Of a DNA stretch of 64,000 bases, positions 28,080 through 28,390 are shown in pieces. The notes under the pieces were generated by a model. It saw only the letters and a list, made by a program, of their open reading frames with translations. It was not told where the DNA came from and made no database searches. Both the position numbers and the translations under genes were made by a program. Position 1 is the first letter of the stretch; each line of letters begins with the position of its first letter. The stretch is from Escherichia coli (GTDB lineage: Bacteria > Pseudomonadota > Gammaproteobacteria > Enterobacterales > Enterobacteriaceae): NCBI RefSeq assembly GCF_002854065.1, contig NZ_CP024147.1; one strand, written 5' to 3'.

Positions 28080-28390
28080 TACACCGCAGTGCCTGATGCG
28101 ACGCTGTTGTGTCTTATCAGGCCTACGAGTTCAGTGCTGTGTGTAGGTCGGATAAGGCGCTCACGCCGCATCCGACAATAACAGCATTGCCTGATGCGAC
28201 GCTGCCGCGTCTTATCAGGCTTACGAGTTCGGTGCTGTGTAGGTCGGATAAGGCGTTCATGCCGTATCCGACAATAACAGCATTGCCTGATGCGACGCTG
28301 TTGTGTCTTATCAGGCCTACGAGTTCAGTGCTGTGTAGGTCGGATAAGGCGTTCACGCCGCATCCGGCAATAACAGCCTTGCCTGACGCA
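28080..28390. repeat. Tandem BIME array (about three repeats of a roughly 100-bp REP-containing unit)
   Basis: Three near-identical units each containing gcctgatgcgacgct..cgtcttatcaggcctacgagttc..gtgtaggtcggataaggcg..cgccgcatccg. Confidence 0.85.

What the first reader, a model, noticed from the sequence alone, without database searches (positions are those of the whole stretch)
28080..28390. Tandem BIME array in the holC-pepA spacer
Three roughly 100-bp units of REP palindromes occupy the intergenic region, yielding long overlapping ORF artefacts on both strands. These are known structural elements (gyrase/IHF binding, mRNA stabilisation) and could be mistaken for a CRISPR-like repeat.
Basis: partly seen in the sequence, partly recalled or inferred. 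Interest (0 to 1): 0.2.

Follow-up and report, generated by a model that had tools for sequence, protein, structure and literature searches.

The report
Ordinary BIME-2 palindrome array, pepA–holC
The repeat is real and is a well-known kind of E. coli intergenic element: a BIME-2 array of six REP hairpins between pepA and holC, which varies in copy number among strains and is ordinary.

Summary
Tandem Repeats Finder reports a 96-bp unit, 3.1 copies, at 28086-28386. The array fills about 90% of the 353-bp spacer between pepA and holC, both on the minus strand.

Each unit holds two bulged palindromes in opposite orientation, a Z2 REP and a Y REP. That gives six full REPs plus a half-REP at each end. 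Z2+Y composition, tandem amplification, short linkers and no IHF consensus identify it as BIME-2, not the IHF-binding BIME-1.

The one-unit K-12 allele is already listed as a BIME-2 at holC-pepA, with in vivo gyrase cleavage sites (Sutormin 2019).

Among 5,426 complete E. coli genomes, a systematic sample gives about 47% with three units, 20% with two and 7% with one. The other 26% (1,405 genomes, exact count) carry an unrelated insert with a known "TMECO" triplex-motif hairpin. E. albertii, E. whittamii and a cryptic Escherichia also carry the BIME here.

Two units pass Rfam's naRNA4 threshold, but only on the strand antisense to pepA/holC.

The most likely role is a gyrase site on DNA and a cluster of 3'-exonuclease-blocking, attenuating hairpins inside a pepA-holC-valS transcript.

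Verdict: already known, low interest.

The parts
28039..28068 (-). Conserved holC leader (ribosome-binding region). It is not part of the repeat and marks the holC-side boundary of the variable segment.
   Evidence: These 30 nt are shared with the REP-less E. coli allele. A 27-28 nt stretch is 100% identical in Salmonella, Citrobacter, Kluyvera, Leclercia and Kosakonia.
28069..28090 (.). holC-side end of the BIME: a half-REP head (GCATCAGG at 28070-28077) plus a 13-nt linker.
   Evidence: It lies inside the segment that is swapped in the REP-less allele. The degenerate copy is 67% identical to a unit. There is a weak naRNA4 hit of 29.2 bits at 28048-28123.
28091..28126 (+). Z2 REP number 1
   Evidence: One mismatch to the Z2 pattern. 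Hairpin of -20.2 kcal/mol.
28127..28142 (.). Tail-to-tail linker, 16 nt (GAGTTCAGTGCTGTGT)
28143..28176 (-). Y REP number 1
   Evidence: Three mismatches to the Y pattern. Hairpin of -19.2 kcal/mol.
28177..28188 (.). Head-to-head linker, 12 nt (AATAACAGCATT)
   Evidence: It differs from the 13-nt linker of REP325.
28189..28224 (+). Z2 REP number 2
   Evidence: One mismatch. Hairpin of -21.8 kcal/mol.
28225..28238 (.). Tail-to-tail linker, 14 nt
28239..28272 (-). Y REP number 2
   Evidence: Four mismatches. Hairpin of -17.5 kcal/mol.
28273..28284 (.). Head-to-head linker, 12 nt
28285..28320 (+). Z2 REP number 3, identical to number 1
28321..28334 (.). Tail-to-tail linker, 14 nt
28335..28368 (-). 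Y REP number 3. It is the first full hairpin met by the pepA transcript, 23 nt after the stop codon.
   Evidence: One mismatch. Hairpin of -15.3 kcal/mol.
28369..28390 (.). pepA-side end: a 12-nt linker plus a truncated Z2 head (GCCTGACGC at 28381-28389).
   Evidence: naRNA4 partial hit of 37.1 bits at 28338-28374.
28392..29903 (-). pepA (aminopeptidase A), the upstream gene of the transcription unit
27595..28038 (-). holC (DNA polymerase III chi), the downstream gene. It overlaps the valS start by one base.
28109..28408 (+). 99-aa ORF artefact through the array
28123..28356 (-). 77-aa ORF artefact through the array

Best explanation
The feature is a three-unit BIME-2. It is a tandem array of six REP palindromes, with Z2 and Y types alternating in inverted orientation. 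It sits between the pepA stop codon and the conserved holC leader, inside what is probably a pepA-holC-valS transcription unit on the minus strand.

Identity is essentially certain (about 0.97). The proposed mechanism is less so (about 0.55), and its steps have different standing.

(a) On DNA, the palindromes are a preferred binding and cleavage site for DNA gyrase. This is shown experimentally for the one-unit K-12 allele and inferred for this three-unit allele.

(b) On the pepA read-through RNA, the six stable hairpins have no U tract. They would act as barriers to 3'->5' exonucleases and as a partial, Rho-assisted attenuator, favouring pepA over holC-valS expression. This is inferred by analogy with REP325 and other intercistronic REPs.

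(c) The array grows and shrinks by whole 96-98-bp units, through recombination or slippage between units or through REP-associated transposase activity. The variation is observed; the mechanism behind it is inferred.
For: Structure.

Family definition: BIME-2 is z2+y in multiple tandem copies with short linkers, no IHF site, and copy number variable between strains (PMC3333891). No Z1 pattern and no IHF consensus is present.

Relation to REP325: two units align end to end with Rfam's naRNA4 model, which was built on the Y-l-Z2 unit of REP325, at 76.3 and 70.0 bits against a gathering score of 59.5. They also align with REP325 units outside the linker. Pair 3-30 of the Y stem is C-G in REP325 and U-A in both window units, a compensated change.

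Gyrase: sheet DS3 of PMC6379681 lists 'BIMEs2 4490136-4490219, 83 bp, <holC-<pepA' with cleavage sites Cfx 2, RifCfx 1, Micro 0 and Oxo 2. Most BIME-2 rows visible in the excerpts of that sheet read here show 0. That paper finds BIME-2 enriched for cleavage that does not depend on transcription.

RNA role: the minus-strand RNA folds with z = -10.5. No intrinsic-terminator-like or sigma-70-like site lies in the array. A supplementary table of the Harris 2026 preprint links a terminator after valS with 'pepA:holC:valS'. REP325 stabilises the upstream gene and attenuates the downstream gene in a partly Rho-dependent way, and REP-separated tandem gene pairs show an upstream-biased expression ratio. 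Rho-dependent transcripts end at protective hairpins without a U tract. All 92 Enterobacteriaceae species surveyed keep a stable hairpin in this spacer (best local energy no weaker than -14.7 kcal/mol; median -25.7 versus -16.8 for shuffles), and only 5 have a U tract.

Copy-number variation: 1, 2 and 3 units occur in complete E. coli genomes. There are 4 units in E. coli SCPM-O-B-8794, 3 in E. albertii, 2 in E. whittamii and 1 in Escherichia sp. MOD1-EC7003.
Against: There are no transcript, half-life or gyrase data for the three-unit allele. The gyrase counts for the K-12 allele are small.

About 26% of E. coli (1,405 of 5,426) lack the BIME altogether, and K-12 manages with one unit. Any locus-specific function is therefore dispensable, or replaceable by another hairpin.

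[quoted passage not shown] In the stored part of its supplement, this REP does not appear among those overlapping mapped Rho-dependent terminators.

The array is read by the pepA transcript in the orientation opposite to that of REP325 in yjdMN, so the analogy is not exact.
Confidence: 0.85

Rival explanations
1. The array is a neutral or selfish repeat with no locus-specific function. It would be a REP doublet cluster that landed downstream of pepA and expands or contracts by slippage, unequal recombination or REP-associated transposase activity. Any gyrase binding or hairpin effect would be incidental.
For: Copy number ranges from 0 to 4 units among Escherichia, with no change in the flanking genes. 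A quarter of E. coli genomes replace it with an unrelated element. The same repeat family occurs at a median of 23 places per genome at megablast sensitivity. TnpA-REP cleaves and recombines BIMEs in vitro, and this has been proposed to explain copy-number variation (PMC3333891).
Against: Every one of 92 species keeps some stable hairpin at this position, which suggests the site needs one. Gyrase cleaves the K-12 allele in vivo even under rifampicin. This reading is not exclusive of the best explanation.
Confidence: 0.3
2. The units are naRNA4-like small RNA genes whose products bind the nucleoid protein HU and help condense the chromosome, as proposed for REP325.
For: Rfam RF02564 hits above the gathering score at 28146-28221 (76.3 bits) and 28242-28317 (70.0 bits) on the + strand. 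Qian 2015 reported HU-bound RNAs from REP325.
Against: The scoring strand is antisense to pepA and holC, and no promoter-like site lies in or next to the array. The strand that pepA transcription would produce scores 53.6 and 46.6 bits, below the threshold. At REP325 the sense strand is the gene strand. The model is in effect a Y-linker-Z2 detector and also hits another BIME in the window. The 2026 preprint reports that REP325 and naRNA4 do not measurably compact the nucleoid.
Confidence: 0.05
3. It is a BIME-1 / RIB-RIP element that recruits IHF.
Against: There is no Z1 REP. There is no IHF consensus even with one mismatch. The linkers are 12-16 nt, not the long L motif, and the element is amplified, whereas BIME-1 occurs as a single copy. 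The published list classifies it as BIME-2.
Confidence: 0.02
4. It is the Rho-independent terminator of pepA.
For: Stable GC-rich hairpins start 23 nt after the stop codon.
Against: No hairpin in the array is followed by a T run, and the scan found no terminator-like site on the minus strand there. The downstream genes holC and valS are co-oriented, start 52 nt beyond the last REP, and are listed together with pepA at the terminator after valS.
Confidence: 0.05
5. It is a CRISPR-like array, or real protein-coding ORFs.
For: Regularly spaced palindromic repeats are present. ORFs of 99 aa and 77 aa cross the array.
Against: The stretches between the palindromes are themselves repeated at 90-95% identity, so there are no unique spacers. 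The ORF products are internally repeated with the 32-codon period. They have no Pfam match, are absent from the protein collection and are not annotated in RefSeq.
Confidence: 0.01

Closest known systems
BIME-2 family of E. coli (Y + Z2 palindromic units; Gilson/Bachellier nomenclature as summarised in PMC3333891)
   Same: It has Z2 and Y REPs in alternating orientation, tandem amplification, short linkers, no IHF site, copy number that varies between strains, and an intergenic 3'-of-gene location. The K-12 allele of this locus is listed as BIME-2 with gyrase cleavage sites (PMC6379681).
   Different: Nothing essential differs. The local linkers (AATAACAGCATT, GAGTTCAGTGCTGT) and the GTCGGAT...ATCCGAC variant of the Y stem are locus-specific. 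I could not map the linkers onto the published S/s/l/r motif names because those papers are not held.
REP325 / naRNA4 (Rfam RF02564), yjdM-yjdN spacer of K-12
   Same: Both share the Y-linker-Z2 unit plan. The two palindromes align closely. Both lie between co-oriented genes. Two window units pass the Rfam gathering score.
   Different: REP325 has 6 units of 100 bp, and this array has 3 of 96-98 bp. The linker sequences differ. The array is inverted relative to its host transcription unit, so the gene-strand RNA is the complement of the naRNA4 orientation and scores below threshold.
BIME-1 / RIB-RIP elements (Y-L-Z1, IHF-binding)
   Same: It belongs to the same REP superfamily and also contains a Y unit.
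   Different: There is no Z1, no L motif and no IHF consensus, and it is not single-copy.
REPIN / RAYT (TnpA-REP) system
   Same: It consists of inverted REP doublets with the GTAG/CTAC tetranucleotide and the stem mismatch that TnpA-REP requires.
   Different: No RAYT gene was looked for or seen in this window, and mobilisation was not tested.
TMECO type A intrastrand-triplex motif (Holder 2015, PMC4666352)
   Same: It occupies exactly the same spacer in 26% of E. coli and in many other Enterobacteriaceae genera, and it is also a stable hairpin without a U tract.
   Different: The sequence is unrelated (CCCTCTCCCTTAGGGAGAGGGTTAGGGTGAGGG). It is not a REP, and it is absent from this window.

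Membership tests
BIME-2 | Built from Y and Z2 palindromic units | tested here: met
   There are three Z2 (1 mismatch each) and three Y (1-4 mismatches). The same patterns mark the Y and Z2 units of REP325, as labelled by Qian 2015. Rfam's Y-l-Z2 model matches positions 1-77 in full.
BIME-2 | [quoted passage not shown] | tested here: met
   All Z2 lie on + and all Y on -, strictly alternating.
BIME-2 | Multiple tandem copies, well conserved within a locus | tested here: met
   3.1 copies at 90-95% identity.
BIME-2 | Short linkers, with no L motif or IHF site | tested here: met
   Linkers are 12 and 14-16 nt. There is no WATCAANNNNTTR match at up to 1 mismatch.
BIME-2 | Copy number varies between strains at a given locus | tested here: met
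   1, 2, 3 and 4 units occur in Escherichia.
BIME-2 | Bound and cleaved by DNA gyrase | not testable with these tools
   Published Topo-seq shows cleavage sites in the one-unit K-12 allele. The three-unit allele has not been assayed.
REP (single unit) | Imperfect palindrome with a conserved stem mismatch and a GTAG/CTAC tetranucleotide at the foot | tested here: met
   All six fold with one internal mismatch or bulge and end in CTAC (TTAC in Z2 number 2).
BIME-1 / RIB-RIP | Y + Z1 separated by the L linker with an IHF site; single copy | tested here: not met
   No Z1 hit, no IHF consensus, and the element is amplified.
naRNA4 (Rfam RF02564) | Covariance-model score at or above the gathering score of 59.5 bits | tested here: met
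   76.3 and 70.0 bits on the + strand. The minus strand scores 53.6 and 46.6 bits, below threshold.
naRNA4 (Rfam RF02564) | Transcribed in the sense orientation, from the upstream gene's promoter as at REP325 | tested here: not met
   The sense orientation is antisense to pepA/holC, whereas at REP325 it is the gene strand. No promoter-like site was found for the + strand. Actual expression was not measured.
naRNA4 (Rfam RF02564) | RNA binds HU | not testable with these tools
   No data exist for this locus.
CRISPR array | Identical repeats separated by unique spacers | tested here: not met
   The inter-palindrome stretches are repeated along with the unit.
Intrinsic terminator | GC-rich hairpin followed by a U tract | tested here: not met
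   No such site lies in the array on either strand.

The most novel reading that the evidence does not exclude
The pepA-holC spacer may act as a heritable, strain-specific dial. The number of BIME-2 units (0-4), or its replacement by a TMECO hairpin, would set the pepA : holC-valS expression ratio or the local gyrase load. REP-type and TMECO-type hairpins would then be functionally interchangeable 3' modules. This would explain why they never co-occur at this site in 92 species while every species keeps some hairpin there. A weaker variant is that the plus strand yields antisense naRNA4-like RNAs.
Probability: 0.12. Interest if true: 0.35.

Novelty: already known. Interest (0 to 1): 0.08.

Why it matters
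It matters little on its own. The element serves mainly as a caution for annotation. It produces 77-99-aa ORF artefacts, regularly spaced palindromes that resemble CRISPR, and above-threshold Rfam naRNA4 hits on the strand that is probably not expressed.

The locus is a clean natural series, with 0, 1, 2, 3 and 4 units plus a TMECO replacement, next to an essential gene (valS) and a replisome gene (holC). It could therefore be a convenient test bed for the current question of whether REP arrays act as context-dependent terminator/stabiliser dials and as gyrase sites.

Tried and rejected
- **K-12 annotation.** I looked for an annotated REP feature at this spacer in the K-12 RefSeq record. The feature table lists only CDSs there, so I give no EcoCyc REP number.
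- **Original BIME papers.** I tried to read PMC333889 and PMC1207841 to name the linker motifs (S, s, l, r) and to look for this locus. Neither is held.
- **Literature on the locus.** Searches for holC/pepA with REP, or with transcription units, found nothing relevant.
- **Term-seq data.** The Dar & Sorek supplement is not held, so no 3'-end data for pepA were obtained.
- **IHF site.** I tested for one and found none.
- **Intrinsic terminator or promoter in the array.** The scan found neither.
- **ORFs.** Pfam and an exact-sequence look-up both returned nothing.
- **Stop-codon-proximal REP effect.** From my own recollection (Liang, Rudd & Deutscher 2015), a REP within about 15 nt of a stop codon causes ribosome stalling. 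I could not check this here. The first full REP begins 23 nt after the pepA stop, so I did not invoke it.
- **Formal covariation.** The REP copies are too conserved. Only one compensated pair was seen. That call accidentally included a one-base stray row (L009:1-1), which adds only a gap row.
- **Regex survey of outgroups.** It counts symmetric palindromes on both strands, so only presence or absence should be read from it.
- **Copy-number frequencies.** They come from a systematic sample of 59 chromosomes, not a full census. Only the REP-less allele was counted exactly.

Full report
**What is there.** The window's minus strand carries valS (24740-27595), holC (27595-28038) and pepA (28392-29903) in the order pepA, holC, valS. 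The stretch 27595-29903 is 100% identical to E. coli CUWW06 and about 99.9% identical to many other E. coli. RefSeq annotates only pepA, holC and valS there. The K-12 record shows the same gene order.

The 353-bp pepA-holC spacer (28039-28391) contains a tandem repeat at 28086-28386. It has period 96, 3.1 copies, 90% matches, no indels and score 507. Copies are 92-95% identical, with start spacing of 98, 96 and 96.

**Anatomy.** Each unit holds two different palindromes in opposite orientation.
- Z2-type REPs are at 28091-28126, 28189-28224 and 28285-28320 on the plus strand.
- Y-type REPs are at 28143-28176, 28239-28272 and 28335-28368 on the minus strand.
- Shuffled sequence gives 0.00 expected matches to either pattern.

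I wrote the consensus patterns from memory, but they were validated in two ways. The same patterns pick out the twelve alternating units of REP325, which Qian et al. 2015 label Y and Z2. Rfam's naRNA4 model, built on one Y-l-Z2 unit, also aligns over its full length to the window units.

Each of the six REPs folds into a hairpin of -15 to -22 kcal/mol with the characteristic internal mismatch and a CTAC tail. Head-to-head linkers are 12 nt (AATAACAGCATT) and tail-to-tail linkers are 14-16 nt.

The array ends in a half-REP on both sides: GCATCAGG at 28070-28077 and GCCTGACGC at 28381-28389. Comparison with an E. coli allele that lacks the repeat shows that the variable segment runs from 28069 to about 28385. 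On the holC side it is bounded by a 30-nt leader. A 27-28-nt stretch of that leader is identical in Salmonella, Citrobacter, Kluyvera, Leclercia and Kosakonia.

**Which kind of BIME.** According to Ton-Hoang et al. (PMC3333891), BIME-1 is z1 + y, single copy, with a long L linker that often carries an IHF site. BIME-2 is z2 + y in multiple tandem copies with short linkers, and its copy number varies between strains.

This array has Z2 and Y only, with no Z1 hit. It is amplified and has 12-16-nt linkers. It has no IHF consensus even with one mismatch.

The published BIME list in Sutormin et al. 2019 classifies the K-12 element at '<holC-<pepA' as BIME-2.

**Population and phylogenetic spread.** 5,413 of 5,426 complete E. 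coli genomes hold the locus. A systematic sample of 59 chromosomes, taken at even steps down the ranking, gave four classes. I confirmed them by reading example spacers from the 1-, 2- and 3-unit and REP-less classes.

| Allele | Match span (bp) | Chromosomes in sample |
|---|---|---|
| 3 units | 2309-2311 | 28 |
| 2 units | 2210-2214 | 12 |
| 1 unit (includes K-12 derivatives DH10B and MC1061; MG1655 has a 159-bp spacer) | 2115-2117 | 4 |
| No REP | 2088-2089 | 15 |

The three-unit form of this window is thus the commonest allele.

An exact count with the REP-less allele as query gave 1,405 of 5,426 genomes. That allele carries a 103-bp unrelated insert containing CCCTCTCCCTTAGGGAGAGGGTTAGGGTGAGGG. 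This is the type A 'TMECO' intrastrand-triplex motif of Holder et al. 2015.

A scan of one genome per species with a degenerate holC 5' pattern returned 99 loci and 92 usable spacers, 64-455 bp long with a median of 122 bp. The Y/Z2 BIME is present in four of them:
- E. coli SCPM-O-B-8794: 4 units
- E. albertii: 3 units
- E. whittamii: 2 units
- Escherichia sp. MOD1-EC7003: 1 unit

It is therefore older than E. coli. Salmonella and Citrobacter have one or two REP-like palindromes at the same place.

Over the 92 species, 34 have REP-like palindromes, 25 have TMECO-like palindromes, none has both, and 33 have neither by my patterns. Every species nevertheless has a stable local hairpin. The weakest is -14.7 kcal/mol, and the median is -25.7 against -16.8 for shuffled spacers. 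Only 5 are followed by a U tract.

**How it most likely works.**

*On DNA.* Sutormin et al. mapped gyrase cleavage sites in a K-12 W3110 derivative. Sheet DS3 gives, for the 83-bp BIME-2 at holC-pepA, 2 sites with ciprofloxacin, 1 with rifampicin plus ciprofloxacin, 0 with microcin B17 and 2 with oxolinic acid. Most BIME-2 rows visible in the excerpts of that sheet read here show none. The paper reports that BIME-2 are enriched in cleavage sites, mainly in Y units, and more so when transcription is blocked. Gyrase action at this locus is therefore shown for the one-unit allele and inferred for three units.

*On RNA.* The array lies between co-oriented genes. A supplementary table of the Harris et al. 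2026 preprint associates the terminator after valS with 'pepA:holC:valS'. This hints that transcription crosses the BIME in K-12.

The minus-strand RNA is far more structured than chance (z = -10.5). No hairpin has a U tract, and no terminator-like or promoter-like site lies in the array.

By analogy with REP325, the array is expected to protect pepA mRNA and damp read-through into holC-valS. Three published observations support the analogy. REP325 stabilises the upstream yjdM and attenuates the downstream yjdN in a partly Rho-dependent way. REP-separated tandem gene pairs show upstream-biased expression genome-wide. Rho-dependent transcripts are trimmed back to protective hairpins that lack a U tract. 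This step is inference.

*Caveats.* REP effects depend on context. The array is dispensable in a quarter of strains. It is read in the opposite orientation to REP325.

**The naRNA4 hits.** Rfam RF02564 scores 76.3 and 70.0 bits at 28146-28221 and 28242-28317, against a gathering score of 59.5. These hits are on the plus strand, antisense to pepA/holC. The minus strand scores 53.6 and 46.6 bits.

At REP325 the high-scoring strand (95-111 bits) is the gene strand. The hits therefore show that the unit plan is shared (alignments), not that an sRNA gene exists here. The same model also hits another BIME at 1354-1431. The proposed nucleoid-condensing role of naRNA4 has itself been contested.

**Other readings rejected.**
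- It is not CRISPR-like, because there are no unique spacers.
- The 99-aa and 77-aa ORFs are artefacts. A 96-bp period equals 32 codons, so the reading frame is kept across units. The products show the 32-residue repeat, have no Pfam family, are not in the protein collection and are not annotated.

**Verdict.** The finding is a correct recognition of a known element. Its kind, its presence at this locus, its gyrase cleavage and the general phenomenon of BIME-2 copy-number polymorphism are all published.
- the exact anatomy of the array;
- the allele spectrum at this locus, including replacement by a TMECO element;
- the orientation caveat for the Rfam hits.

Interest is low.

Noticed in passing
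window 28069-28385 versus L004:475-571 (E. coli H15): E. coli has two forms of the pepA-holC spacer. 1,405 of 5,426 complete genomes replace the whole BIME with a 103-bp insert carrying a TMECO type A triplex-motif hairpin (CCCTCTCCCTTAGGGAGAGGGTTAGGGTGAGGG). Across 92 Enterobacteriaceae species, REP-like (34) and TMECO-like (25) palindromes at this spacer never co-occur.
   Followed up: partly
window 28146-28221 and 28242-28317 (+): Rfam naRNA4 hits exceed the gathering score on the strand antisense to the flanking genes. The model behaves as a generic Y-linker-Z2 detector, so such hits can mislead automated sRNA annotation.
   Followed up: yes
window 1351-1431; 4479-4564; 32457-32492: There are other REP/BIME sites in the window: a Y+Z2 pair with an 80.1-bit naRNA4 hit at 1354-1431, a Z2+Y pair at 4479-4564, and a single degenerate Z2-like REP at 32457-32492.
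   Followed up: no
window 29151-29345 (+): Rfam Ysr276 (Yersinia sRNA 276, antisense type) matches at 180.8 bits over its full length, inside the pepA coding sequence on the opposite strand. The match may simply reflect conservation of pepA.
   Followed up: no
window 28039-28068: A 30-nt stretch upstream of the holC start codon (TATTTAAATCCACCACAAGAAGCCCCATTT on the gene strand) is nearly invariant across many enterobacterial genera. No consensus promoter was detected in it, so it may be a translation-initiation or regulatory region.
   Followed up: partly
window 27722..27693 (-): A sigma-70-like site (TTGCCA, 18 nt, TAGACT, with an upstream TG) lies inside holC. It is a possible internal promoter for the essential valS gene.
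   Followed up: no
window 11482-11597 (+); 40360-40444 (+): There is a magnesium riboswitch (RF01056, 125.8 bits; by my recollection this is the mgtA leader) and a tRNA-Leu(CAA) gene. By my recollection the latter is leuX, a frequent island integration site.
   Followed up: no
L023 (E. coli SCPM-O-B-8794), pepA-holC spacer of 455 bp: This is a four-unit allele (8 REPs) with a different tail-to-tail linker (ACAGAGTATCGAACTC). None of the 59 sampled complete genomes had more than three units.
   Followed up: partly
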